NCBI GenBank assembly: GCA_000002445.1
Contig: CM000207.1
Location: 2,944,001-3,008,000 of the forward strand
DNA length: 64,000 bases
Direction: 5' to 3'
Source: Trypanosoma brucei
Lineage: Eukaryota
The notes under the pieces were generated by a model that had not been told where the DNA came from, ran no database searches, and saw nothing but the letters and a program-made list of their open reading frames with translations. The position numbers were made by a program, and so were the translations under genes. Positions 9,340-34,915 of this stretch are shown here, one piece after another. The number at the start of each line of letters is the position of its first letter. Positions within the stretch are counted from its first letter, which is position 1.

Positions 9340-10860
9340 CTGATTTACAAGAAAAATGGAGTCACGACATTCGACTTTGTCCTTTTCATCCTCGTTATAT
9401 TTCCCACTTCTTCATCCACAATGCTTTTTGCCATCCTTGTTGACGGCCTCGCACGCCTCCTTGGTTGTATGGCTAGAGCAATTTACTCCTGTTGTTTTCT
9501 CCACAGTTTTGTCGGCAGGTACATCTCCCGCGTTTGTTTTTGCTTGTGTATCTGTGGCTTGTTTGTTTTCGCCCTGGTCCTTGGCACTTTGCTGGTTGAT
9601 CTGCGCTGCTAGATAAGAGGTTATCTTTCCTATAGATTTTCCCTGAACAATATCCACTAGTGTGCCGGTAACAACGTTGTCCCCTACAGTGATCTTGCGT
9701 ATTTTTGTCTGGGCGTCCGCTACAAAGTTCTTCTGGAACCCTTCTTCACTATCTGAAAATGCCTCTTCTACTGCCTTTTTTTTTGGCTGCTGCTTCTGTT
9801 GGCATTTTTTGGGGGTCTTTCCCGAGTGCGATGTGCGCTAACCCGGCGGCTGTTTCATCCGTTGCAAGCGTTTTGATGGTTTCAGCAGCAACTGAGTTCG
9901 GCACAGTGACGGTGTGCTTTAGGGCATGGCAGGTTACGTGAAGGAGATATTCTTTGGTCGTCGTTGCCCAGGGTGTGTTGAGCTTTTGTTCCTTACATTT
10001 GGTTTGCGCCGTGGGATCGTCGAACATTTGCTGCTCCACGAGTCTTATGCTTGTTGCTTGCGGTGTTGCTTCCGCCCCCAGCACTTTGCTGCCTGTTTTT
10101 GGACCGCTTGTTTGAACACACCAGCCCGAGCTGCTGCTTGGCCAGTCGATGGTCCCCATTGTGCCCTTTGCTCGAGCGACTAATGAGATTTTTTGAGCTT
10201 CGAAAATGTCGTTTGGCGCCAGTTTGAGCTTTGCTATTTTATTCAGTTCGATGTTGTTTTCTTTAACTTGTGTGTTGGCGTCGCTTTCAATTGAACAATT
10301 GTCTGCTTCCGTCAGCGTTGGTATGTGGACTACCGTGCAGCTTGTGGAGCTTGCCGACGGGTTGCTGTCGGCCCCGTTGTGGGTCGCCTGCGCTGCGGTT
10401 TGTATTGTCTTCATGTGTTTTTTCCTGGCCGCTAGTGCCATGGCGGCTCTTGCCCTTAGTGCTTTCACTGCTGGCCCTATGACTTTTTCTGCTGCTGCAA
10501 TTGACGACCTGGCTTGGTTTGCCCTGGCCTCTGCGTTTGTTGCCAGGACAGTATGGCCAGCAGCAGCCGGCTTACTGACTTTCATCTGTGCTAACAAGCG
10601 GTGTGCTTGTGCTAACTTTCCCTCTGTTTCGGTGAAAGCGGCGGCGGCTTTCGTCTTAGTTTTCAGCCGATTTGACAGAGCCACAAGATATCGTATTTCG
10701 TCACAGAGTGTTGTCGCTGCAGTTGCTGCTGTGTCTAAACCAGTGGCCTCCGTTACCCTGGTTGTCACGTGCTACAGCATTGCTAGAAGCACCGTGGTCT
10801 TCCAAGCCGTGTATGTCGCGCGCATGTCTACTAGTAATGGTTTGCAGTTCTGATAAGGTT
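9340..10860 (-). pseudogene. VSG: VSG pseudogene, with the N-terminal domain and CTD in different frames.
   Basis: ORF 9749-10768 (339 aa) is a VSG-like N-terminal domain with no in-frame signal peptide. ORF 9412-9657 is a Cys-containing CTD (NCSSHTTKEACEAVNKDGKKHCG). A conserved 3' flank lies at 9250-9335. Confidence 0.6.
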
Positions 10861-11744
10861 GTTTTGTGCGTTTCGCAAGCTGCTTTGGCAGCGTTTTAGT
10901 GTTTTGCCTGCGTTTTTTTTTACCTTTTTACAAAGGTTTAAGCTCACGTTGGAGACTACACTTGCTTATTGGTGCCTCTAATTTAGTGTCAGCGGTTTAT
11001 CGGTCTGTGTTTGCTGTCGTTGAAATAAATAAATATGCAAAAAAGTTATAAAAACACCAACGTGTGCCGATAAAAACGTATTAAATGCGTGAAAGCTTGC
11101 GATTTCAGCTGTAGCTCTTGCTTGGTATTTTTCTCCGACGCCGACTCAACACATTTGGTTTGGATGTTAGCATTTACTCGTTCTGAAAAACGAAGGTATA
11201 TGGACCTCGGTCTGCATAGCACTTTCTGCCCTCCGCCTTCAATAGCCTGCCGTTTCGCTACTTCAAACAACCCACACATCTGCCCTATAAAATGGCGCCC
11301 CCTGTCCTCAAAGTTTCTCATTAGGCTGGGACACCATAATAAAAATCACAATCACAACATCATCTCCTACATTGCATATTTCCATTTTTTTTTTGAAATA
11401 CGGCCCCAAAATCTCCCCCTGCTGCATAATTTTTGACTTCTCTGTATTGTCGCATACTACCTTCTTTCATTTCGTGTTTTACTTACCTTCCCTATTTTTC
11501 ATACCGCCACTTCTTCGAATAAATTAGAGCCTCCATTTGTCCTGTGCAGGTGAGTCTCTGGTCGAATTTCCCCTTCATCAACTCCTCGCGTATAATGATT
11601 CCCAACCTTATGTCTCTGTTTTAAACTGCGCATACTACAACTCCATCTCTTTCTTCACAATTACTTTCATTGTACCCTTCCCATTGTTTTAACTACTAAA
11701 CGTTACACCGTCTATTCTTTTATAACCACCACTTTTATTATTAT

Positions 11745-12420
<676 letters not shown>

Positions 12421-12698
12421 TCAAAATTGCTTAAATAAACAAAAATACTTAGAATATCATTTACTTTTTATATCCTATCACCATACCACTGTGCACCCAG
12501 AGGCCACTATCATACATATATTTCAAAAATTTTAGACAGATAAATTTCATAAAATTGAGAGAAAATTCTTAAAATCCTTAAAATATAAAACCCACTAAAG
12601 CAGCAGCGATCAAAGTAAATTTCTTATTGACAGTAAAACTATAATCCTTTCAAGCATTATTTTCCCATTTGCAGTTTCTAGTGCAATCTTTCTGTTGC

Positions 12699-14150
12699 TT
12701 ATCTTTGCATTCTGAAGTTTTTTTTGGTTCCTCCTGTTCTTGCTTGGGTGTCTTGTTGTTCTGCTGCTGCCTCATTCAATTTGCAGTGTTTTCCGTCTTT
12801 TTCATCAGAACCTGTCCATTTGCAAATCGGACTCTTTTTTCTGCATTCAGCTGATTTCGTTATTTCCTCGCATTGGTCGGCACTTTGAGGCAATGCTCTT
12901 CTATCGGCCAGACTTGCTGCTTGTTTTGGGGCTGCCGCTGCCATCAATGCTATTGTGGTCATTGTTTTGTTTAATTGCTGGATGTTTTCCGCTAGCCGGA
13001 ATGCTTTCTTGGCTGCCCCCCGGGCTTTTTCTATGGCGTCGGCAGCGCCAAGCATTTTCTGTGCCCACCCGATTGCTAGATTGTCGCCGCTTTGTGGCCC
13101 GTAATAAACGCAGCACCCACCGTTGCTGGCGTCTATGTCGTCGCAGCCGTCATTGCCGTTGCCTATTGCTGCGCCCAGCATGTAAGTCTTTGCTTTGTTG
13201 GTTCCAGACCCAGTCGATGCTGCTTGTAGGACCGCACTGACGGTTGCTCTTAGCGCCGCTGCCGTCACTAGCTTAGCTTTGCTGTGCTTCTTGCATGCAT
13301 CGTACAACTCCTTCCATTGGGCTGGACCGTTTGCCATGTTTGCCCAGGTTGTGTCGCTGGCCGAAATTGAAACGGTACCGCACACTGCTGCCTGGTCCTG
13401 TTGTGTGTCTTTGCTACAGATGCATAGGAAATCCGCTGCGATCGATTCCCCTGCGATTTTTCCCTTTTTGCCTCCGCTTCCAGCATTGCCGCATGCGTCT
13501 ACTCGGCTTTCTACCGTTGTCGCCGTCACTTTCGTTTGTTTGTCAGCAACCGGGCCCACCGCTTGTTTGAGCAACGTCTGCGCTGTGTCAGCTTTGGCTT
13601 TTAGTAGTTCCGCCCTGAGCTCCGTCGCCAACTGCAGTACGGCTTGGGCTTGTTCTTCCAGCGCTTGCCTTGCCGTGTCAGAGAAGTCCGCACCTTTTAT
13701 TAGCTGATAGGCCTTGTCCGTCTTTGCTGTTTTGTGCCTATTAGCTGCCTTGACGCAGTTGGAGGCTGCCACCTCAACGCATTCCTTGCCTGCTGTTGAA
13801 CTTGGTTTGCTGATTGCTTCCTCAGCACTGTTCTTTGCCGCTAGTTCGGCTAGAGCTTCTGGGCTGAGTAGCGTTATGTTGATTAGCGCCGCTGCTTCCT
13901 CGGCGTCTGTTGGTTCGGCTGGTATCTCTGGCGCTGCTACCTGGGCTGAAGCGACATCGAGAGCGTTGCAAAGCAGTGCAAAGTCGCTAGCATGTGTTCC
14001 GGCTGCAGGGCCGGCCGCTCCTGCTGGTCCTGCTGCTACCGCAGCCATAAGCAACCCTGTGATAACGAATAAAGTTTGCTCTGAGCGAGTCGTGGATGCT
14101 TTTCTTCTTGCTGCTTGTTCCTGGGCAGTTGTGCTGGACTTCTGTCGCAT
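12699..14150 (-). CDS. VSG: VSG with an intact N-terminal domain ORF but a disrupted C-terminal end.
   Basis: A 483-aa ORF. The signal-like segment LFVITGLLMAAVAAG has an alternative start at M35 (about 14048). The GPI-signal coding (KDYSFTVNKKFTLIAAALVGF) is out of frame and separated by a stop after CKWENNA, so this is an atypical VSG. Confidence 0.75.
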   Translation of the reverse strand: MRQKSSTTAQEQAARRKASTTRSEQTLFVITGLLMAAVAAGPAGAAGPAAGTHASDFALLCNALDVASAQVAAPEIPAEPTDAEEAAALINITLLSPEALAELAAKNSAEEAISKPSSTAGKECVEVAASNCVKAANRHKTAKTDKAYQLIKGADFSDTARQALEEQAQAVLQLATELRAELLKAKADTAQTLLKQAVGPVADKQTKVTATTVESRVDACGNAGSGGKKGKIAGESIAADFLCICSKDTQQDQAAVCGTVSISASDTTWANMANGPAQWKELYDACKKHSKAKLVTAAALRATVSAVLQAASTGSGTNKAKTYMLGAAIGNGNDGCDDIDASNGGCCVYYGPQSGDNLAIGWAQKMLGAADAIEKARGAAKKAFRLAENIQQLNKTMTTIALMAAAAPKQAASLADRRALPQSADQCEEITKSAECRKKSPICKWTGSDEKDGKHCKLNEAAAEQQDTQARTGGTKKNFRMQR

Positions 14151-15384
14151 GTCTCGTCTTGGTGTCCTATATATAGCCGCTATTTGGAAGCAAAGAGTCG
14201 TCTACCGTTTCGGTTTCTAACAGTTTTTTAACTTTTCTATAAACTCCTTGCCGTACTTGTTATCATGTGAGAGCCCACATTTTTCCCCTTTGATGTTCAG
14301 GGATTAGTTTTTTTTTTTGCGTAGGTGTGCGGAGTTGTACACTGTACTGGTGCAAGTAGCAAAACTTTATTATCAGCTGTATCACTTGCGCTGCTCAAGG
14401 AACTGTCATTAACAATGCTGGAGGTAAATCATACAAATGAAAATTATGCTGATGTTTATGGGGACTAAACTATTAGTAACGTATAGGATGAAAGTAAAGG
14501 TAACAAAAAAACATCTAAGAAACGTTTGTTGGAAAACGTAGAACCTCCAACTCGTTTTGCACCACATGTGCAATGCTAATTACAGTCTATATGGCCATGT
14601 ATCTACACTGATTGCATCTATCCTTCACATCAGCAACTCCGTCCCTGTGAATCCTTAAAATCCGGCGTATGCTGCTACATCTAAAGCATCTATCACTCGT
14701 GCGGTTTAATATGCTCTATGTTCTGATAATCCACAGCCAGCGGTTTGACTCCGAATAACAAAACAATGCTGGTGTTTTGCCCAAACTTCACCGCTGTCCT
14801 TCTTCTTTCGTGTATTCTGACTGACTTTATTTTGACATCCATTAAGGTTGTGTAATTTGGGGTCACAAAGTGCCTTCCTTTACGCTTTCACTTTGTTAAC
14901 ACGCGACGCTAGCTCTCCATCCGTGACCACTTTTACATGGATAACTCGCTTTATAAAAGGTGTTAATGTATATCAAGTATAACAATACAAAATTTACGGA
15001 TTACAACCATTCTTTCTCTTCTCTTCATAGATGTTCTCTGTTAGTTCATATAGCCGATTTATTATTCTTTTTCTGTTTCCCTCTTGAACTTTAGTCAGTA
15101 CTGTCTCCTGTTTTTATCAGTGTAAAATGAATGGCATTTATATTTTATCCCGGCGCCCTTTTGTGTGTTTTGGTGATCAGAGCCTACATATTCATTGGTA
15201 TGATGGTTCTTCTATCTTTGCTAAGTTTTACAATGAGTATATTTAGCCACCTACTCCTTCTATCTTTTTCTGCCCCTTTCAATAACAATATAGTCCTGTT
15301 CAATGTCACAAATACTCACTCATTCGCATTGAACCCCTGCAATGGATTTAGATGCTTACATTTTGGCCGTGTATTTCCTCTTAA

Positions 15385-15717: not shown

Positions 15718-16414
15718 TTATGCTAGAAGCAAAAATGCAAGCAACAGAGGCGCCTTGCTAATGACAAAAGAATTGCTTCCTGTGGTGTTTGTAGTTTTAC
15801 CATCATTTTCCGCTTTTACTCCCTCTTTAGCTTTGCACTCCCCATCTTTGAATTGACATCCATCCTTTTTGTTGCATTTATTTTCGTCTTTTTCTCCCTG
15901 GCAGTCCTTTGCCTTTTTGGCTACGCTCTCTGCTCCTGGTCGTGATATTTTTTTTGCTAGTGCGTCTTCCCGCGCGCTCCTCTCTGCTTCCAGTTTTGCG
16001 AGGACGTCTTGTTCTTCTTCCCCTTCTGACAAGGTTTCGATGTTGGACGTCGTCTTTTTTCCCCGACGAAATATCGTGATTGATTTTTCTGCGACCAGCG
16101 GTCTGAATTTCGATGTGAAAGCTTGACTGTTAGCACCGTATTCTTCTTTCAGAAAGCTTACTAGTTCGCTATTTTCTGTCGCTTTTGTTGGCTCTAATAG
16201 GTTGTTAAACATCCCTAGGCATGTCGCACCGCTCTTTGCACTGTTGTATTGAGCGACAACGCTGGGCCGTCTAGTGTCGGTAACTGGACTGTTTTTGGTT
16301 GCGTTTTTAGTGCAGAGCAGATGACTTTTGCAAAAAACTGCCGCGATTGTGTGGCCTCCTGCGCGTCGTTGTTGGCGTTTAGACAGCTTTCTGCTGGGTT
16401 GTTGTTCTCGTAGA
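15718..16414 (-). pseudogene. VSG: VSG 3' half (a-type CTD plus GPI signal), 5'-truncated at the ingi 5' end.
   Basis: ORF 15718-16437 ends ...KDCQGEKDENKCNKKDGCQFKDGECKAKEGVK...GSNSFVISKAPLLLAFLLLA. This is near-identical in CTD and GPI signal to the intact VSG at 31207-32676. Its first codons (MRWPAS) are encoded by the antisense of the ingi terminus. Confidence 0.75.
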
Positions 16415-17687
16415 CCCAGCGATGCCGGCCACCTCAACGTGGTGCCAGGGTCCAGTACACCGTATCATCGGGGGAAGCCAAGAGCCAGCAGCGTTCCTTT
16501 CATGGGGAACACTGCTTTGCTCCGGCTACGGCATTATACAGAACAGGGATCAGCAGCGTCTTGCTGGGACACCGTCTTTCATTTGTCCGTCCCTGGGCAC
16601 GTGCCAGCGTGCCATCAGCAGTATCATCCGCACTAAGATGCTGCTGTCCGGTGATGTGGAAAAAAATCCCAGTCCGTCGTTGCGCGGGATGCAGTGGAAC
16701 TGCGCCGGGCTATCTCAAGGAAAGAGATTAGCACTCCACAAAACCCTTGTTGATGAGCGGATCGCCTTTTGTCTGTTGAGCGAGACAAGGATGACGCCTG
16801 GAGAGGCGGCTTGCTTTAGCGTTGCTGGCTACCAAAATCACGGAATAGCTCGTAACTGCAAATGAGGTGGTGTATCAATACTAGTGAGGGAGGACCTGCC
16901 AGTCGAGACCGGTATGGCCGTTGTTGGTCGCATTGAACAAGTGCATGCAACAATTCACCTTGCACGTGGAACGGCGCTGACTGTCACGTCGGCATACATC
17001 CCACCAAAACACACCTTCACGGCAACTGACCTAGATACGCTTCTGACGACTGACGGTGCCCAGCTCATCGGTGCAGACGCTAACGCACACGCGTTGGCAT
17101 GGGATCGCGCGAACCCACCAAATACCAAGGGTGAAACCCTCACACAGTGGTGCATTAACAACCAGTTTCTGGTCTGCAACACTGGTGAGTCCACCAGGTA
17201 CGCGCGCCACCACGGGGAGTCCACCCCTGATGTGACACTGTCAAGGAATTGCACAGTGTACACGTGGGCATCGCTGTATTCTCCCGATAGCGATCACCAT
17301 CACATATTTTTCGACGTTATCGTTGGAGACGACACAGATGCACTGAGTTGCCCGCGGCTTCGAAAGCCCATGTACGCATGGTTAAAAGCTAACTGGAGGA
17401 ATTTCCGTCTCAAGGTTGACGAGCTCTGCAGGAAAATTGGTAGAGAGAAGAACGTCAACACCCTGGAACAGAAATTAAGCTCCACTATCCGCACTGCGAC
17501 GAAGTTCTCCGTCCCCCGTGGCTGCAGAGCAACGCCACCACATTGGACACCTGAGCTCGCGAAACTCGATGAAGAGATCCCTGGATGCGGACCCTCCCAC
17601 CGAAGGGAAAAGTTGGTAGCCACGCGTAAGCAGATCCTGGACCGTACCACAAAAAAGAGGTGAAGCACTCTATGCTCCAGACTTGCG

Positions 17688-18665
17688 GTGTCAGACCGCT
17701 GCAGTTGGCACATTGTCAAGAAGGTATACGCGCCACGACCACTAACCACACCGGCTGTACTTGTTGATAACACGGCCATCACGGACTACCGTCAAGCTGA
17801 GATGTTCAGTAAACTGTACTCGTCTCAAGCAAGAAGGCATCCCGACTCACACCCACCATCACCCATAAAGACGACAGAGAGTGAGTTCAGTCCCATCACG
17901 ATGGCTGAACTACGGAGATCGATCAAACTGCTACCGAGTGGATCCGCAGCCGGACCTGATTGCTTATACAACGAGGCACTGCAACATCTCGGTAGAACAG
18001 CGCTGAATGTTGTTCTGAGGCTATTCAATGAGAGCCTACGAACGGGAGTCGTGCCGCCTGCATGGAAGACTGGTGTTATCATCCCCATCCTGAAGGCCGG
18101 AAAAAAGGCGGAGGACCTTGATTCTTACAGGCCTGTGACGCTCACGAGCTGTCTCTGCAAAGTCATGGAACGCATAATTGCCGCGAGGCTTAGAGATACT
18201 GTTGAGTCCCAGCTGACGCCGCAGCAATCAGGCTTTCGCCCCGGATGCTCAACACTCGAACAACTCCTGCAGGTCCGTGCTGCCCTTTGCCGCCCCACGC
18301 ATCAATCTCGTACGGGTGCTGTATTCGTTGACTACGAGAAGGCATTTGATGCAGTAGACCACGACAAAATTGCGAGGGAAATGCACAGAATGAAGGTATC
18401 ACACCACATTGTGAAGTGGTGCGTATCATCTCTGAGTAACCGAACTGGCAGAGTGAGATTCAAGGAGAAGCTTTCCAGAAGCAGAACATTTGAGCGAGGA
18501 GTGCCACAAGGAACTGTCCTTGGCCCAATCATGTTCATTATTGTCATGAACTCGTTGAGCCAACGCCTTGCAGAAGTGCCGTTACTGCAGCACAGATTCT
18601 TTGCAGACGACCTGAAGCTACTTGCGAGGCACACAGAGAGGGATGTCATCAACCACACACTATAG
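17688..18665 (+). pseudogene. ingi reverse-transcriptase domain ORF fragment.
   Basis: Carries reverse-transcriptase motifs (GFRPGCST, VFVDYEKAFD, FADD). It is flanked by out-of-frame endonuclease and RNase H pieces. Confidence 0.75.
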
Positions 18666-19386
18666 TGCGGCCTAAACGTGGTGTTACAGTTGTCAAAAGA
18701 GTACTTCATGTCTGTAAACGTAGCGAAAACAAAATGCACACTCTTCGGGTGTATAGAGCGCCACCCCCTTACATTACAACTGGACGGCGAAAGAATAGGA
18801 GCTGACAGGACACCACAGCTTCTAGGAGTAACATTCCAGTGTCTGCAAGGGATGGCAACACATGCAGCCGAAACGAGACGCAAGATGGACTTCCGACTAC
18901 TGCAGATAGCAGCCATCTCAGCTTCTACATGGGGGCCAAGACGACAAGTACTGAGAGCTTTTTACGTAGCACTCGTACAGGCACACACCATGTATGGCAT
19001 TGAGGTATGGTACTGGGACGCTTCGGAACGAAGTCGTGACCTCCTTGCATCAGCACAACACAAAGCCAGTTGAATCATAGCCGGCATACCGCATGGGACG
19101 CGCAAAGAGAACTCTCTGCTGCAAGCAAACCTCCTGCCACTCAAGACGACCACTCTTGTGCGCAGCATGAAATTCATGCTGATGTGTGAGTCACGAGGCG
19201 GATGTTTACGGCGCAGTGCTGAAGAAGTATACCACAGCAAACACCCAGTCAGAGTCTTACATTCCCGCATCATGCGGTCCTACCCCCACCTCCGCATTGA
19301 GCCACGCGAGCACCCACTAGAGACATCGACGCTCCGCCACAGCTGCCGACCGATATTTCACACGCAGATAAAGCCTGTGTCCGCTG

Positions 19387-19917
19387 ATGACCATGAAGAT
19401 GTCAAAAGGGAGGCTTCCGAAAAGTGGATTGAACGGCATTTTACACGGAGGGGGAAAGGAGCCACCGCGGCGAGAGCACTACGAATTGTGTACTGATGGA
19501 TCCGTGTCCCTCGGTGAGAAGTCCGGAGCAGCTACCCTGCTCTATAGAAACAACACGCTGATTTGTGCACCCAAAACGGGAGCAGGGGAACTCTCATGTA
19601 GTTACAGAGCGGAATGCGTAGCATTAGAGATAGGACTGCAACGGCTGCTGAAATGGCTTCCGGCATACAGAAGCACACTGAGCAGGTTGTCCATCTTCTC
19701 TGACTCGCTGTCAATGTTAACAGCACTGCAGACAGGCCCCCTAGCCGTGACGGACCCAATTCTGAGACGACTATGGAGGCTTCTGCTTCAACTTCAGAGA
19801 AGGAAGGTGCGCATCCGACTGCAATTTGTGTTTGGCCATTGTGGTGTGAAACGGAATGAGGTTTGTGACGAAATGGCCAAAAAGGCCGCAGATTTACCAC
19901 AGTTGCGAGACACATAG
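19387..19917 (+). pseudogene. ingi RNase H domain ORF fragment.
   Basis: CTDGSVSLGEKSGAATLL...SYRAECVALEIGL is an RNase H-like catalytic signature. Confidence 0.65.
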
Positions 19918-20285
19918 ATCCCCGACATCATTGCTTATGCGAAGCGAGTGCTTAGGTCGGAAGAAGTCCATGAGAACACTCATAGGTTTGGTATCACGGC
20001 AACCACTTTCCAACAAAACATAAAGAAGAACTGACGAGGGAAGAAGAAACAACAGTGGCACGCTTTCGGGTTGGGTTTTCAAGGCACTATGGATGGATGT
20101 TGCGAAAGATCAACCCGAGTGTGCCTCCACAGTGCCGATAGTGTAACCCGCAACATGCAGCGATAGGACCAACAATACAAACGGTCCCAACTGTTGCGAC
20201 ACGCACTCTTCAGAGAACCTCCGAACCGACCAAATGTACGGAATGCAATGCCACATACCAATGCCGGTCGAGTGCTGTAACGCAC

Positions 20286-21026
20286 ATGGTAAACAAACAC
20301 GGCTTTGTGCGAGCTGATGCCCTCCGGAGGATCAAATACGGCGATGCAAGACCTGCAGTGGATATCCCCCCGGAGCCCCCTCCAGTGGTGGCAATCGTTC
20401 CTTTACCATCGAGCACACGAGTCCCGATGAGACTGCAGGTGCTTCATTGTACCCTCTGTGCCTCCAAATTCGCAGTGCCAGGCCGACTATTACACCACCT
20501 TCAAACGATACATGGCATAGGCAGCGGTAGTTGCCGCGTGAAAAGGGGGCGAGAGAACGAGGACTCATTGCAAGGAGATGGTAGCGTCCCAGCAGCGCCA
20601 GCCCCTCAGGATACACGGAAGCTGCCATTTCAATGTGACCTGTGCGAGGCGAGCTTCGGTACACGTTCTTCCCTGTCACTACACAAGAAATTCAAACATA
20701 AGAGCATAGTGACGGAGGATGGTACCGTGGTGGTGGTGCAATTCCCCCGTAAGCGTGCCCGTGAGGGAAACGTTGACGTCCCGGGGAAAGGCGAGGTGCA
20801 GTGTGGTGTGTGCCAAAAAGTGCTCAGTTGCAGGGACACCCTCATCCGACACTGTAAAGCTTTCCACAAAGGTGAGGGAGTCGAGCTTAAATGCAGCAAA
20901 AGCACAAAACTGTGTGCCACTGATTCCCCGCATACAAACGCATCCATGTTGATGTGCCCACATGCGGAAGGCAGTGTGCTAGCAAAATTGGCCTCACCTT
21001 ACATCAAAAGAAGATGCACGGTATGA
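20286..21026 (+). pseudogene. ingi C-terminal C2H2 zinc-finger region ORF fragment.
   Basis: CTLCASKFAVPGRLLHHLQTIHG, FQCDLCEASFGTRSSLSLHKKFKHK and CGVCQKVLSCRDTLIRHCKAFHKG. Confidence 0.65.
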
Positions 21027-23028
21027 AGGTAGAGCGCGCTGTTACCAGCCAACGCGGCAACTGCGAAGAAACGTCGCTGCACTTGATGAGCTGCCCCGGT
21101 TTGAAGGAGTTACGTGTCAGGTTTGCGGTAGAAGGTGAGTGTGTGTGCAGGATGTATGTTTCACTAAAATGCTGGCGCAGTGTCTCATTGCGGTTGAACG
21201 GAGCCGGCCGCAGGTGAAGTCCTCACCTAATGTAACAGTTATACAACCCACTCTCCCTTCTGCAACTTTCCCCCTTATTTCCGAGTGTGGAGCTAGCAGG
21301 AAAAGCACCGGACGCAGGAATAGTCCAGACACCCTCAGAGACAGAGAGGGGGTATGCAGTCAACAAGCAACAGAAACAGAAAAAGGGGAAGAGAATAATA
21401 AACGAATAACAAAAATCAAAACAAAAGGATTGCTAATTGACATCTTTGGGAGAGTCTGGGGTGGGGGACTTCTTGCCCCATCTGCTGTATTCCGTTCAAC
21501 TGCGGAGCTACAACAAAAATTATAGAGAGTGTGTTAGGCCGAAAAAAAAATGGAGACTCTGCCACAGTCGCCAGATCGATAGCATCTCAGGGATCTACAG
21601 TGATGGCTGATGGCCGCGCCAGTGGGGGGAAACTCCCACGAAGGCACGAAGAAAATTAAATATATATATATATATACGTTAATAGGATTAGTAGACGAAA
21701 GGAAAGAAAATAAAGTAAAAAGTGAAACAACAGAATAGGTGGAAACACAGTGCATAACTGAATAAAATGATACAAGAGAATATTATGCTTGAAATGTCAC
21801 ATAAAATTGGTTAGATTCTACCGCAGAAATAATGGCGACTGTGTTTGAAATGCATGAACGGCACCAAATATTGATCACTAGGTTTGCGGGCCTACCTACA
21901 ACTGGTTGTATGGGGGAGTGCTGTAAGTTGAAGATAAACAGAATCCGATTGCAAAGGAAAAGGATGTAAAATGATTTTGGTGGTAATTTTTTTGAATAGG
22001 TCTGCCGACAGTAGCGAATAATAATAATAATAATGCAGCGGATATAAAGTGGCGCTACTTGTACATGAATGAATGAAACTCCTCAGTGTCAGAAGAAAAA
22101 GTTATCATCGAGCGTCAAGCAGTGTGTTGGAGGGTTTGATGGCCAAGAACAATCATGAATAAGCAAAATTTAGTTTAAAAAAGCAAAGTATAAGAAACAC
22201 AGCACTTTTCTCATGTTTTTTTGGGATAACAAACCAACAAACGGCCCACACATCTAACGGAGACCTAATAATGAAAGAAACTGTCAACAACCTGGCAGTA
22301 ACACGCACACTAAGTTTCATCCAACACAAGGTGCGGCTCAGAGCAAAAAACGACCTACAGCCACCATGTCTCATTTTAATTCTAACAAACTACATCTCTA
22401 TGCGCCCACGAACAAGTGCAATGGCCACAGAATGTGCATTACGCCAAAAAGGCCTAAATAGGGGGCCAAAAATGAAACAATAAATCACAAAGTGGAACCT
22501 AACCGACAAAAAGTAGCAAGCGCAGGGTAAGGTTGCAGTAGTTACTCCACCGCCAGTTAAAACTACTAAACTAAGAACGGGAGCCCAAAACACATATTCG
22601 GCGAAGCACATGCTGAACAGCAAGCAGAAACCTTAAGAGAGTAGGCAGAAGTTTAATGTCAGTTCCGGAGCTGGCGCTGCGACGCGGCAAACAACGAGAA
22701 ACCAATAAAAGAGAGGCGATGCGCACAAAATTTGGACGGGCTACCAAAACAGCCAACGCTAGAAATGTCACGGCCGAGTTAACTCTAGCACGTCTACACG
22801 GCACGGAGGAAACACCATCAGCAATAATAGACGTGGGCCGACAGCCAAGTCCAACAAAGCAGGATGTCAACGGCAGTAACGTGTGTCAAAACAAAAGCGC
22901 CAATGCGAAACAACATGCGATCTTGCCGTTAAAGGCAGTAAAAACCACAAATAAAGCGTCTCCAGCGATCAAAAATCAGGCAATACATCCCCTTAGAATC
23001 TTCACAAAAACGAAAAGCAAGCAAAGTA

Positions 23029-31206: not shown

Positions 31207-32676
31207 ATGGACTACAAAGACTGCTATGGCTACTTAGCAGCACTGACCTTTGTAGTATCTTTGTGCTCAGGCGCTCCACTAACAGACAACGACCCTGTAG
31301 CCGAGCAGATATCAGACCTGTGCAAAGAGAAGTTTTACGTGGAAACACTCATCCAAAATCTCAAGCAAAGAGTGCAAAGCACCGCGGCCTCAATCAAAGA
31401 CATGGAGAAGCTGAAAGCAACATGGGAAAAAGCAGCAGCCGCCACATCTGATGCCGCAAAAAAATGCCTATTCAGCGCACTGGAACACAAAGCCGATGCG
31501 GAACTATTGAGGGAACTGCCAAAGATAGAAGAAGCAACAGAAGCGGTGACAACAGCTCAAATAGCATTGTCCGAGCATGTGGGGATGCTAGGAGCCACCA
31601 TAACTTTGGCAAAAACTAAGCTCGACAGCGGCAGCAGTAACCACGGCAACGCCGGCACAGGTTCAATCAGAATAGCACTCTCTAGAACAACCGCAACAAC
31701 AGACCTCTGCAACGAACCCGCGACTATATCGGATATCAAACCTGGAGTGTCGGAAATTCAACCAGACAAACTGTTCAAACTTAAACTAACCAAACCAACA
31801 GATCTGCACAAGCACATGTTCGTCGACTGGCTAACGATCGGAGGACTAACGAGCTGCACGGCGCACACATCTTACGACCAAAACTTCGACGCCGCCCTCA
31901 GTGGCTGCAACTACAAAACGGCAGCCACAGCGGAGGCTAAACAAGCCACAACCAAGCCGACCTACGGCACCACAGAGGTCACGCTATTCAAAAATAACGA
32001 CCCAGAACAGCAATGCGAAGTAACAGATCTACCAGCTGGAGGAGCCGCAGACAAACACAAAAAACTACAACATTCACTGTGCCGAGCGTTGCAATTAGGC
32101 AATGTCAACGGACGGTCGCTGCGACAACTAAACGGCGCGGCACTACAAAGTGACCATGTTGTTGCCAACACAATCAGAAACTGCGACCCAGTCTTCCAAA
32201 AACTAACGACAGCCACAGATGGCGAAGGGACAACTGAGTTAAAAAAATACATCAAAGAAGCATATGGAAGCTCTGCAAGCGAGTTCGCTGAGAAGTTCAT
32301 TACAAACGCGGAAAAACTACAAATGACGTTGCGCTTAAATGATAAAATAGAAACAAAGGATTTGAGTGCTGTTTCACCAGGTGAACAAACCGCAGCAGCT
32401 CTGAGTCATATACAGGGACTACATAACAAAAGGGAACTTGAAGCAGGAAAAAAGAGTACAAGCGCTGCGGCGGTTGATCCACAAAAATCAGAGGACTGCA
32501 AGGGAGAAAAGGACGAAACTAAATGCAACAAAAAAGATGGGTGTGAATTCAAAGACGGGGAGTGCTTAGCTAAAGTGACAACAGCAGCAGGGACAGATGG
32601 TAAAACAAACACCACAGGAAGCAATTCTTTTGTCATTCATAAGACCCCTCTTTTGCATGTATGTTTGCTGCTATAA
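31207..32676 (+). CDS. VSG: VSG, a-type, apparently fully intact, with signal peptide, N-terminal domain, CTD, GPI signal and stop.
   Basis: A 489-aa ORF that begins MDYKDCYGYLAALTFVVSLCSGAP and ends ...EDCKGEKDETKCNKKDGCEFKDGECLAKV...GSNSFVIHKTPLLHVCLLL*. There are no internal stops or frameshifts. Confidence 0.85.
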   Translation: MDYKDCYGYLAALTFVVSLCSGAPLTDNDPVAEQISDLCKEKFYVETLIQNLKQRVQSTAASIKDMEKLKATWEKAAAATSDAAKKCLFSALEHKADAELLRELPKIEEATEAVTTAQIALSEHVGMLGATITLAKTKLDSGSSNHGNAGTGSIRIALSRTTATTDLCNEPATISDIKPGVSEIQPDKLFKLKLTKPTDLHKHMFVDWLTIGGLTSCTAHTSYDQNFDAALSGCNYKTAATAEAKQATTKPTYGTTEVTLFKNNDPEQQCEVTDLPAGGAADKHKKLQHSLCRALQLGNVNGRSLRQLNGAALQSDHVVANTIRNCDPVFQKLTTATDGEGTTELKKYIKEAYGSSASEFAEKFITNAEKLQMTLRLNDKIETKDLSAVSPGEQTAAALSHIQGLHNKRELEAGKKSTSAAAVDPQKSEDCKGEKDETKCNKKDGCEFKDGECLAKVTTAAGTDGKTNTTGSNSFVIHKTPLLHVCLLL

Positions 32677-32857
32677 TAACACTTTAAATAATTATTTGTA
32701 AAATATTTTTCTCAATTATATGAAAATTATAGAAACTATGACAGTTTTCGTTTTTGAAAGAACTTTATAAAATTAATCATACTTCAAATGTAACAATACT
32801 TTTTAATAAAAAAGTAGAAAATAGAAAATTTTTCCGATTATGATTTATTTTGCTTAT

Positions 32858-32940
32858 GGATATTGGTTAGGGTTATAATAATGTAGTAAAAGTAATAATA
32901 AAAGGAGCGTGTTTTCATTACATATTATGTAATTATAAAA
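32858..32940 (+). repeat. 70-bp repeat, degenerate, plus orientation.
   Basis: GATATTGGTTAGGGTTATAATAATGTAGTAAAAGTAATAATAAAAGGAGCGTGTTTTCATTACATATTATGTAATTATAAAAC. Confidence 0.5.
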
Positions 32941-33251
32941 CAAGCAGGAGGAACCGAGTGACGGGACAAAATTAAGCACTTAAACAACAGTGAACTCGTA
33001 ATAATTTTAATTTAGTGACAAAGATTAAAATGGATAAAAACAGAAATGTATATGGATTATATTCACTTTTAAACGCTCAAATGGAAAAGTGATCACAACA
33101 ACAATAACAATAAATGCTGTATTATTACTAAACAGATAAAAACGACACTCTAGCGTATGTAGATACAAAACCTAGCTGTAAAACGCTCACTGGATCACTG
33201 ATGAAAAAAACACAAGAGAAAATAAAAGGAAAAGAAGAAGACACAAAAGAC

Positions 33252-33749
33252 TTTTTTTAAATTTTCTTCGTGCCTTCGTGGGAGTTTCCCCCCACTGGCG
33301 CGGCTATCAGCCATCACCGTAGAGCCCTGAGATGCTATCGATCTGGCGACTGTGGCAGAGTCTCCCTCTTTTATTAAGCCTAACACACCCTCTATAATTT
33401 TTGTTGTAGCTCCGCAGATGAACGGAATACAGCATATGGGGTAAGAAGCCCCCCACCCCAGACTCTCCAAAAGATGTCAATTAGCAATCCTTTTTTTGGA
33501 GTTCCACATCACCGAACAGCAGCATCTTAGTGCGGATGATACTGCTGATGGCACGCTGGCACGTGCCCAGGGACCGACAAATGAAGAACGGTGTCCCAGC
33601 AAGACGCTGCTGATCCCTGTGCTGTATGATGCCGTAGCCGGAGCAAAGCAGTGTTCCCCATGAAAGGAACTCTGCTGGCTCTTGGCTTCCCCCGATGATA
33701 CGGGGTACTGGACCCTGGCACCACGTTGAGGTGGCCGGCATCGCCAGGG
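33252..33749 (-). mobile_element. RIME (ribosomal mobile element), about 500 bp, formed by the ingi 5' and 3' terminal halves joined directly.
   Basis: 33481-33749 is the reverse complement of the ingi 5' segment at 16415-16660. 33262-33480 is the reverse complement of the ingi 3' segment at 21425-21655. The junction reads GTGGAACTCCAAAAAAAGGATTGCTAATTGACATC. Confidence 0.85.
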
Positions 33750-34450
33750 GACACAGACAACAGCGGCAGATGCCAAACGACATCTACCACGGAGACTCTC
33801 AGCAGCATTTCGATGGTAGCCGAATCGGCTGGCACAACATATGGAGGCGAGCTATTACAAACAAAAAAAGCTGACCGCCCAAAGCAAAACTGCGAGGCCG
33901 AAGAAGAGAATCCACCAATTAAACTGGCCAGGGCGGCAAAGCTAGCATCCCTGCTGTGCAAGGCAAAAGACGCGATAACACCTCCAAAGATAGCGCTAGA
34001 AGAGACAACAACAGAAACGTTAGTCGGTGACACCGACTTTTTGTACATTGCAGCCCAACTTCTAGCAACTGAAATCCCAGCAGGTACACAGCCAGAAGGC
34101 ACGGAAGCCGACAAAATCAAGCAACTGATCAAAAGTACTTACGGCGACGCTACAACCTTCATATCGCGATACACCACTGGCCTCTATGACAAGCAGACGA
34201 AATACAAAAAAGGAACCCAAGATCGGGAAGGAACTCTAGACAGCGTAGCCACAGGCACTGACCTAGCCCTGGCAAGCATCTATTTTAAGGGCAGAGCACT
34301 CCCGCTTGATGCAGTTCAAGCAGGACAAGAAAAGAAAAAATCCAAAACAAGACAAACAGATGAAACTTTCAAAAGGAAAGGAAAAGGAGATACTTGCAAA
34401 GATGGGTGAAAATTGAAGGGGGGATTACTGAGAAAAAGTACGCAAAAGAT
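33750..34450 (+). pseudogene. VSG: VSG 3' half (a-type), 5'-truncated at the RIME 5' end, with a frameshifted CTD.
   Basis: ORF 33726-34409 reads ...KIKQLIKSTYGDATTFISRYTTGLYDK...GKGDTCKDG after the RIME-derived MRWPAS. It is homologous to the second halves of the VSGs at 31207 and 15718. A GPI-like tail and the 16-mer variant TGATATATTTTGATAC (34655-34670) follow. Confidence 0.65.
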
Positions 34451-34797
34451 CCGGAATACGAGTTAAATCAGGAAGAAGGAGAAAAAAGAAAACACTGGAA
34501 AACGAAACACAACATGAAACAATTGCACTGTAATTAAGGCATCTGTTTTGCTTCCATTTTTTGTTCTATAATTAATTTTGAAGATTTGTGCTCAGTTTTA
34601 TGGAATTTATGAAATTTTTCTTTTTAAAGATAATTTTCTAAAATTGCTATCACTTGATATATTTTGATACGTTTTAATGAAACGGTTAAAATTAATAAAA
34701 GTTTGGTATGATAGTGTAATATAGGTGTAACGTAATATTCCGATAGGGTATTGAATGCTATTATAATTAGGTTTATTTACTATTCCATTTATTTTAT

Positions 34798-34915
34798 AGA
34801 TATTAGTTAGGTTATGATAGTAATAATAAGATAATAACAGTAGTAATAATAATAATAAGAGGAGAGTGTTGTGAGTGTGCATATACGAATATTATAATGA
34901 GAGCAGTAATGATAA
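34798..34915 (+). repeat. 70-bp repeat, plus orientation.
   Basis: GATATTAGTTAGGTTATGATAGTAATAATAAGATAATAACAGTAGTAATAATAATAATAAGAGGAGAGTGTTGTGAGTGTGCATATACGAATATTATAATGAGAG. Confidence 0.75.

What the first reader, a model, noticed from the sequence alone, without database searches (positions are those of the whole stretch)
33252..34450. The RIME 5' terminus abuts a homologous VSG 3' half at nearly the same relative breakpoint as the ingi junction
The same geometry occurs a second time. The 5' end of the RIME (33749) is fused to the 3' half of a plus-strand a-type VSG (33750-34450), which reads away from the element and again starts MRWPAS from the element terminus. This fragment, the ingi-adjacent fragment at 15718-16414 and the intact VSG at 31207-32676 align over their second halves (KIKQLIKSTYGDATTF, ELVSFLKEEYGANSQAF and ELKKYIKEAYGSSASEF). 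The two breakpoints fall within about 20-40 residues of each other, near residue 230-250 of the VSG. Either one ancestral ingi/RIME-VSG junction was duplicated and has since diverged, or this VSG subfamily has a preferred site for ingi/RIME insertion or recombination. The RIME also shows no obvious TSD, and it has replaced the VSG 5' half and the usual upstream spacer. The 70-bp repeat lies only about 300 bp away, at 32858-32940.
Basis: partly seen in the sequence, partly recalled or inferred. Interest (0 to 1): 0.6.

Follow-up and report, generated by a model that had tools for sequence, protein, structure and literature searches.

The report
RIME-truncated VSG pseudogene, not a hotspot
A short trypanosome retroposon (RIME) sits exactly where the front half of a surface-antigen (VSG) gene has been lost; this is ordinary decay of the silent antigen archive, and its likeness to a second retroposon-VSG junction 17 kb away is not a shared or preferred site.

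Summary
The geometry is real. A complete 498-bp RIME (minus strand, 33252-33749) abuts at its 5' end the last ~55% of a plus-strand A-type VSG pseudogene (33750 to about 34570). A T. equiperdum paralogue (locus L004, 90% nt identity) carries the whole gene without a RIME, and its homology to the window starts exactly at 33750. So about 670 nt of VSG 5' coding sequence and more than 1 kb of upstream spacer are missing.

The RIME-side and ingi-side VSG fragments share no detectable similarity near the junctions. The breakpoints map about 35 codons apart (codon ~225 vs ~260), which I calculate happens by chance about 14% of the time. Their flanks are no more alike than random antisense VSG pairs (P=0.17). 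Six other ingi copies showed no VSG-internal 5' junction. 'MRWPAS' is only the antisense reading of the conserved element terminus.

Contrary to 'no TSD', the RIME is flanked in exact 12-bp register by GACACAAAAGAC and GACACAGACAAC (9/12, chance 0.001-0.003). Each 12-mer is native to its own side. I therefore favour a microhomology-mediated deletion at one target-site duplication (TSD) copy, with recombination between two RIMEs as the main rival. Ordinary; low interest.

The parts
32850..32950 (+). 70-bp repeat copy downstream of the intact VSG; marks the start of the truncated cassette
   Evidence: blastn to the 70-bp copies that follow other VSG 3'UTRs in the window
32951..33239 (+). AT-rich spacer, non-coding, ending in a purine-rich low-complexity stretch
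   Evidence: No VSG or RIME similarity; local repeat 33203-19 / 33234-50
33240..33251 (.). Left 12-mer GACACAAAAGAC abutting the RIME poly(A) end; native spacer sequence
   Evidence: 9/12 match to the right 12-mer in exact register; part of a local spacer repeat
33252..33749 (-). Complete RIME retroposon (498 bp): 5' signature CCCTGGCG... at 33749, A7 tail at 33252-33258
33750..33761 (.). Right 12-mer GACACAGACAAC (codons D-T-D-N); native VSG sequence, identical in the T. equiperdum paralogue
33750..34409 (+). VSG fragment A: last part of an A-type N-terminal domain plus the start of the CTD, from about codon 225 of the precursor
   Evidence: 99% to A0A1V0FYM8, 91% to TEOVI_000828700, 71% to VSG 1125.2123, 68% to A0A1V0FZ55; MSA
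34405..34570 (+). Rest of the CTD in another frame (frameshift near 34405), with a degenerate GPI signal
   Evidence: tblastn of P0007 reaches 34568; sequence reading
34655..34670 (+). VSG 3'UTR 16-mer TGATATATTTTGATAC
15718..16414 (-). VSG fragment B (comparison junction): from about codon 260 to the stop, CTD 77.6% nt identical to that of the intact VSG
16415..21660 (+). Degenerate ingi (5.2 kb), no TSD, at a divergent strand switch of the VSG array
31207..32676 (+). Intact A-type VSG used as the ruler for the breakpoints
   Evidence: Full-length match to VSGsur structures, E=7e-18

Best explanation
A full-length RIME and a later microhomology-mediated deletion together produced this truncated VSG pseudogene. 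It arose independently of the ingi junction at 16.4 kb.

Shown:
- The RIME is complete.
- The sequence at its 5' end is native VSG sequence that, in a paralogue, continues upstream into a full gene.
- The sequence at its poly(A) end is native spacer, 300 bp past a 70-bp repeat.
- About 670 nt of VSG plus more than 1 kb of spacer are absent.
- The two 12-mers touching the element match 9/12 in the 12-bp register typical of ingi/RIME target-site duplications.

Inferred: the RIME inserted by target-primed reverse transcription with a normal 12-bp TSD, either in the spacer or in the VSG. A double-strand break at one TSD copy was then repaired by annealing that 12-mer to a similar 12-mer 1.6 kb or more away. 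This deleted the DNA between them and left the partner's version of the 12-mer.

My preferred sub-version puts the insertion in the spacer. The ingi endonuclease then re-cut its target, which survives at the 5' TSD. The 12-nt overhang on the element side annealed to GACACAGACAAC inside the VSG.

The ingi junction is a separate primary insertion into a different, distant A-type VSG. Its 3' flank was exchanged later.
For: - Element identity and completeness.
- Homology to the RIME-free full-length paralogue starts exactly at 33750.
- There is no trace of the VSG 5' half anywhere in the window.
- 9/12 in exact register: chance 0.0008-0.003 against real spacer and VSG 12-mers. The match starts immediately after the A-run, exactly as in the perfect TSD of the L003 ingi. 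The TSD-less controls gave best matches of 5-8/12, none starting at the A-run.
- Each 12-mer is native to its own side, so this is not a decayed TSD.
- 12-mers matching the left 12-mer at 9/12 or better occur at 0.28% of VSG coding positions. By my arithmetic that is about 4 per gene, so a microhomology partner is readily available.
- The RIME's upstream flank fits the ingi upstream motif only 2/4, whereas seven other junctions fit 3-4/4. This is what a secondary junction would show.
- Independence from the ingi junction.
Against: - A 9/12 match could still be chance.
- The upstream motif rests on only six elements, so the RIME's 2/4 score discriminates weakly.
- No allele showing the pre-deletion state was found. 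The window's own genome is not in the searchable collection.
- L004 is a 90% paralogue, not the ortholog.
- Nothing here shows that the ingi endonuclease re-cuts occupied sites. This is inferred from the published tandem arrangements separated by a single TSD (PMC3820030).
Confidence: 0.45

Rival explanations
1. Recombination between two RIME/ingi copies in the same orientation. One element inserted antisense into the intact VSG at codon ~225 and contributes the 5' junction. Another inserted in the spacer 300 bp after the 70-bp repeat and contributes the 3' junction. Homologous recombination between them deleted the interval and left one chimeric element without a TSD. The 9/12 match is then coincidence.
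For: - TSD-less elements are common. Four of the five complete ingi copies checked here lack a TSD.
- About half of T. cruzi L1Tc/NARTc elements lack a TSD yet keep the upstream pattern (PMC5814959).
- ingi/RIME recombination is a recognised cause of rearrangements between T. brucei subspecies (PMC2854126).
- This model explains both junctions as primary insertion junctions.
Against: - It needs a 0.1-0.3% coincidence in exact register.
- The TSD-less controls show no match that starts at the A-run.
- The RIME's upstream flank fits the motif only 2/4.
Confidence: 0.33
2. True but decayed TSD. The VSG was already truncated at this nucleotide, the RIME later inserted exactly at the old boundary, and the left TSD copy has since picked up three substitutions.
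For: The 12-bp register and the 9/12 identity.
Against: - The left 12-mer belongs to a local spacer repeat, and the right one is identical to the paralogue's VSG codons. The two are therefore natively different sequences.
- It requires an insertion to land exactly on a pre-existing breakpoint.
- Three changes in 12 nt is far more than the element's own divergence: 2-6% from ingi 5' ends and 6.5-10% from ingi 3' ends.
Confidence: 0.07
3. One reading: the two junctions descend from one duplicated ingi/RIME-VSG junction, or they mark a preferred insertion or recombination site in a VSG subfamily.
For: - Both elements are antisense to the VSG fragment at their 5' end.
- The breakpoints lie within ~35 codons of each other.
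- Both flanks contain TGTTGT, and a third ingi flank (L006) begins TTGTTGTT.
- The upstream motif is about 4 times commoner on the antisense strand of VSGs.
Against: - There is no nucleotide or significant protein similarity near the junctions.
- The CTD types differ.
- Flank similarity gives P=0.17.
- 0 of 6 other ingi copies had detectable VSG coding sequence within 1.5 kb of the 5' end.
- Breakpoints this close are expected by chance about 14% of the time (own calculation).
Confidence: 0.08

Closest known systems
TSD-less ingi/RIME and L1Tc/NARTc copies attributed to post-insertion recombination (Bringaud et al. 2004 and 2006, as summarised in PMC5814959; rearrangements in PMC2854126)
   Same: A full-length element whose two flanks come from different contexts. 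The ingi at 16415-21660 is a textbook case, and the RIME may be one too.
   Different: The RIME's flanks are not unrelated. They match 9/12 in the TSD register, which simple inter-element recombination does not predict.
C-terminal VSG gene fragments of the silent archive (Berriman et al. 2005; Marcello and Barry 2007; cited from my own knowledge, not read here)
   Same: A 3' VSG fragment with CTD, 3'UTR 16-mer and downstream 70-bp repeat, sitting in a subtelomeric array. The same fragment is already deposited as a VSG (A0A1V0FYM8).
   Different: Here the exact 5' boundary and the agent sitting at it (a RIME) can be named to the nucleotide, using a full-length paralogue.
RHS (retrotransposon hot spot) genes, where RIME/ingi sit at one fixed position (Bringaud et al. 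2002; from my own knowledge)
   Same: An ingi-clade element inside a member of a multigene family in subtelomeres.
   Different: In RHS genes the position is the same nucleotide in many copies. Here the two positions differ by ~105 nt, lie in unrelated VSGs, and other ingi copies are not VSG-internal.
Microhomology-mediated end joining and deletion in T. brucei (Glover et al. 2011) and L1-associated target-site deletions in human cells (Gilbert 2002; Symer 2002); all from my own knowledge
   Same: A kilobase-scale deletion whose junction carries an imperfect short homology, next to a retroposon end.
   Different: Here the homology partner would be a TSD copy, and the break may be made by the retroposon endonuclease re-cutting an occupied site. 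As far as I know this has not been described for ingi/RIME.

Membership tests
RIME (non-autonomous ingi-clade retroposon) | Conserved ~79-bp 5' signature starting CCCTGGCG | tested here: met
   42-nt probe matches with 0 mismatches at 33708-33749 (minus strand); 0 expected by chance
RIME (non-autonomous ingi-clade retroposon) | About 500 bp, made of the first ~250 and last ~250 bp of ingi, with a poly(A) end | tested here: met
   498 bp; nt 1-248 are 94-98% identical to five ingi 5' ends and nt 253-498 are 90-93.5% identical to ingi 3' ends; A7 tail
RIME (non-autonomous ingi-clade retroposon) | 12-bp target-site duplication | tested here: inconclusive
   9/12 in exact register, but each copy is native to its own flank
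RIME (non-autonomous ingi-clade retroposon) | Conserved pattern upstream of the 5' TSD (endonuclease site) | tested here: inconclusive
   The motif G(-22) T(-21) G(-18) T(-16) was derived here from only six ingi copies. The RIME fits 2/4, and the window ingi fits 3/4 if it starts at 16415. The published consensus could not be read.
A-type VSG (gene fragment) | Sequence homology to named VSGs, reaching the junction | tested here: met
   99%, 91%, 71% and 68% identity to four VSG entries; the alignment starts at residue 1-2 of the fragment
A-type VSG (gene fragment) | Class A rather than class B N-terminal domain | tested here: inconclusive
   There is no Pfam VSG_B hit, although the B-type VSGs of the window are hit strongly. 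PF00913 also gives no hit. The relative P0002 matches VSG MITat1.2 only over its C-terminal part. The intact neighbour matches VSGsur over its full length. That VSG MITat1.2 and VSGsur belong to class A is my own knowledge.
A-type VSG (gene fragment) | Intact CTD, GPI signal and 3'UTR 16-mer | tested here: not met
   There is a stop/frameshift at 34407 and the hydrophobic tail is degenerate. The 16-mer is present with 2 mismatches. It is a pseudogene fragment.
Duplicated ancestral element-VSG junction | Nucleotide homology running through both junction-proximal flanks at the same codon | tested here: not met
   blastn aligns only the CTD/3'UTR (68%), more than 700 nt from the junctions. BLASTP of A against B is not significant. 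The breakpoints are ~35 codons apart.
Insertion hot spot (RHS-like) | Same position and a shared target sequence in independent copies | tested here: not met
   The positions differ. Flank similarity gives P=0.17. 0 of 6 other ingi copies had detectable VSG coding sequence within 1.5 kb of the 5' end. The sample is small.

The most novel reading that the evidence does not exclude
The ingi endonuclease re-cuts the target site that survives at the 5' TSD of a resident RIME. The 12-nt overhang left on the element then anneals to a similar 12-mer further upstream. This deletes the DNA in between and leaves the element fused, in TSD register, to the inside of the next VSG. Retroposons would then actively carve 3' VSG fragments out of full cassettes, feeding the pool of C-terminal donors used in mosaic VSG formation.
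Probability: 0.2. Interest if true: 0.5.

Novelty: new member of a known kind. Interest (0 to 1): 0.22.

Why it matters
Mostly as a clean-up. It shows that the apparent recurrence of an 'ingi/RIME 5' end fused to a VSG 3' half' in this window consists of two independent, ordinary events. It is neither a hot spot nor an inherited junction.

Two minor points have some value:
- A nucleotide-exact example of how a VSG cassette becomes a C-terminal fragment, with the lost part defined by a full-length paralogue.
- A near-TSD (9/12) around an element whose flanks are not contiguous. If that pattern recurred genome-wide, it would point to microhomology-mediated deletions seeded at retroposon TSDs as a shaper of the VSG archive.

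Tried and rejected
- The search for homologous proteins on the full fragment A timed out twice. A 190-aa sub-query worked.
- Exact look-ups of three intact VSGs of the window found nothing, so no orthologous or empty-site allele could be fetched.
- The published ingi target consensus (Bringaud 2004, 2009) is not in the held library, and reviews give only the L1Tc pattern. The supplement of PMC4660242 lists motifs that are ingi-internal and was of no use.
- A metagenome scan for the ingi signature found nothing. Rfam found nothing in 15-36 kb.
- I tested an inversion between the inverted ingi and RIME as the origin of both TSD-less states and rejected it. By my own reading of the 12-mers listed, swapping the 3' flanks gives at most 4/12.
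- I tested whether the spacer to the left of the RIME is VSG-derived or shared with other cassettes or with L004. It is not.
- Pfam cannot classify these A-type VSGs.

Full report
**What is there**

The window is a Trypanosoma brucei-type subtelomeric VSG array. It holds B-type and A-type VSG genes, each followed by a 3'UTR 16-mer and, about 170 bp later, a 70-bp repeat.

The conserved ingi/RIME 5' signature occurs twice, against 0 expected by chance:
- At 33749 on the minus strand. This is a complete 498-bp RIME, 33252-33749. Its first 248 nt are 94-98% identical to five ingi 5' ends. Its last ~245 nt are 90-93.5% identical to ingi 3' ends. It has an A7 tail.
- At 16414/16415 on the plus strand. 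This is a 5.2-kb degenerate ingi ending at 21660.

Directly right of the RIME, 33750-34409 is an open frame. It is 99% identical to a deposited T. brucei VSG fragment (A0A1V0FYM8). It is 91% identical to T. equiperdum TEOVI_000828700, 71% to VSG 1125.2123 and 68% to A0A1V0FZ55. The CTD continues in another frame to about 34570, so the fragment is itself a pseudogene. A 16-mer follows at 34655 and the next 70-bp repeat at 34831.

The 'MRWPAS' start of both ORFs is the antisense translation of element nt 5-24. It carries no information.

**The lost half**

TEOVI_000828700 lies on a 7.5-kb T. equiperdum contig, L004. L004 1946-3069 aligns to window 33750-34902 at 90.4% identity. The alignment begins exactly at 33750.

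Upstream of that point L004 carries the N-terminal half of the same VSG (tblastn of A0A1V0FZ55 residues 1-194; ATG near 1273). It also carries at least 1.27 kb of spacer, and it has no RIME. Across the site the native gene reads ...CAACGGCCCTC|GACACAGACAAC|AGCGGCAGATGCC.

So in the window about 670 nt of coding sequence (up to about codon 225) and more than 1 kb of spacer are missing. The RIME sits precisely at the break. No trace of the missing half exists anywhere in the 64 kb. To the left of the RIME there are only 300 bp of non-coding spacer after the 70-bp repeat.

**Comparison with the ingi junction**

Fragment B (16414-15718, minus strand) is VSG-like right up to the ingi. tblastn of a T. 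equiperdum VSG reaches 16415, and B is 43% identical to the intact VSG over residues 326-489.

Fragments A and B are only distant relatives:
- BLASTP of A against B is not significant.
- A against the intact VSG is 23% identical, E=0.003.
- blastn aligns A and B only in the CTD/3'UTR at 68%, more than 700 nt from the junctions.
- The CTDs are of different types.

In the multiple alignment A starts 8 residues before the conserved Cys234 of the intact VSG, which is about codon 226. B starts about 30 residues before Cys292, which is about codon 260. The breakpoints are therefore about 35 codons (~105 nt) apart. Two random breakpoints in ~480 codons would fall this close about 14% of the time (my calculation).

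The 36-nt flanks are no more alike than random pairs of antisense VSG sequence (P=0.17). A duplicated ancestral junction is excluded, and a hot spot has no support.

**Wider sample**

Six further ingi copies were fetched, five from T. b. equiperdum and one from T. b. gambiense. None has detectable VSG coding sequence within 1.5 kb of its 5' end. The positions I could place are:
- one lies in a 70-bp repeat just downstream of a sense-strand VSG;
- one lies ~330 nt upstream of the start of a complete minus-strand VSG;
- one lies beyond a TAA-rich tract upstream of another minus-strand VSG;
- one lies next to an inverted retroelement remnant.

These six copies share an upstream pattern: T(-27), G(-22), T(-21), G(-18), T(-16), ahead of the 12-bp TSD position. 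This agrees with published statements that a conserved, T-rich pattern precedes ingi/RIME and is taken to be the endonuclease site (PMC3820030; PMC2323293).

The window ingi fits 3/4 of these positions if its first base is 16415. The RIME fits 2/4. The pattern at 3/4 or better occurs at 8% of antisense VSG positions against 2.2% of sense positions. This would bias insertions to the antisense orientation, which is the orientation that places the VSG 3' half at the element's 5' end. This is the only part of the 'same geometry' that may have a common cause.

**The near-TSD**

In fact the 12 nt abutting the poly(A) end (33240-33251, GACACAAAAGAC) and the 12 nt abutting the 5' end (33750-33761, GACACAGACAAC) match 9/12.
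- This is the best of 49 registers tested.
- The match begins immediately after the A-run, exactly as in the perfect TSD of the L003 ingi.
- Against real spacer and VSG 12-mers the chance rate is 0.0008-0.003.
- The TSD-less controls gave best matches of 5-8/12, none starting at the A-run.

It is still not a decayed TSD. The right copy is native VSG sequence, and the left copy is part of a local purine-rich spacer repeat. Two natively different but similar 12-mers, each touching one end of the element, is what a microhomology-mediated deletion would leave if one partner was a TSD copy. Near-matches to the left 12-mer occur at 0.28% of VSG coding positions, which I work out as about four per gene, so a partner is easy to find.

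**Most likely history (inferred)**

The RIME inserted with a normal TSD. A break at one TSD copy was repaired by annealing to the similar 12-mer 1.6 kb or more away, which deleted the spacer and the VSG 5' half.

I slightly prefer the version in which the RIME first sat in the spacer and the ingi endonuclease re-cut the target that survives at the 5' TSD. Tandem ingi-clade elements separated by a single TSD show that occupied sites can be re-used (PMC3820030), and the RIME's present upstream flank fits the motif poorly.

The main rival is homologous recombination between two RIMEs, one in the spacer and one in the VSG. That is the accepted origin of TSD-less copies (PMC5814959, PMC2854126), but it leaves the 9/12 match as a coincidence.

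The ingi has unrelated flanks and sits at a divergent strand switch of the array, as do the ingi copies in L006 and L007. It is best read as a primary antisense insertion into another VSG whose 3' side was later exchanged. An inversion between this ingi and the RIME does not restore either TSD (at most 4/12, my reading of the 12-mers).

**Verdict**

The proposed explanations are not supported. This is a retroposon-associated VSG pseudogene fragment of a kind long known in the silent archive, already deposited as a VSG fragment. Interest is low. The one thread worth pulling is whether near-TSDs around 'TSD-less' ingi/RIME are common genome-wide.

Noticed in passing
window 16415-21660; L006 ~9993-15254; L007 5' end at 9913: The ingi sits at a divergent strand switch of the VSG array, with minus-strand VSGs on its 5' side and plus-strand VSGs on its 3' side. 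In the T. b. equiperdum locus L006 the layout is the same. In the T. b. gambiense locus L007 minus-strand VSGs also lie on the 5' side of the ingi, but what lies on its 3' side was not examined.
   Followed up: partly
L001 9501, L002 2486, L003 9045, L005 9777, L006 9993, L007 9913 (5' flanks): Six ingi copies share T(-27), G(-22), T(-21), G(-18) and T(-16) upstream of the 12-bp TSD position (6/6, 6/6, 5/6, 6/6 and 6/6). This is probably the published endonuclease pattern. It is about 4 times commoner on the antisense than on the sense strand of VSG coding sequence.
   Followed up: partly
window ~11850-12330: A long, perfect (TAA)n tract of nearly 500 bp next to 70-bp-repeat-like sequence. It swamps blastn output.
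   Followed up: no
window 34405-34570: The CTD of fragment A is frameshifted and has a degenerate GPI-signal region. The retained 3' half is therefore itself non-functional as it stands.
   Followed up: partly
window 31207-32676 and relatives P0001, P0002, P0007, P0011: The Pfam A-type VSG model PF00913 gives no hit on these clearly VSG proteins, while VSG_B detects all B-type neighbours. The intact VSG matches the VSGsur structures over its full length (E=7e-18).
   Followed up: partly
L001 8813-9059 (minus strand): An inverted partial RIME/ingi 3' half lies ~440 nt upstream of the 5' end of a full ingi. This is another sign of element-element rearrangement.
   Followed up: no
L004 1273-2700: The T. 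equiperdum paralogue is full-length but is read in three frames and is interrupted by N-runs (assembly gaps). It is likely a pseudogene too.
   Followed up: no
window 21658-21676: The ingi has almost no poly(A) (AAA) and runs straight into (TA)8. Its 3' junction may lie in a TA microsatellite.
   Followed up: no
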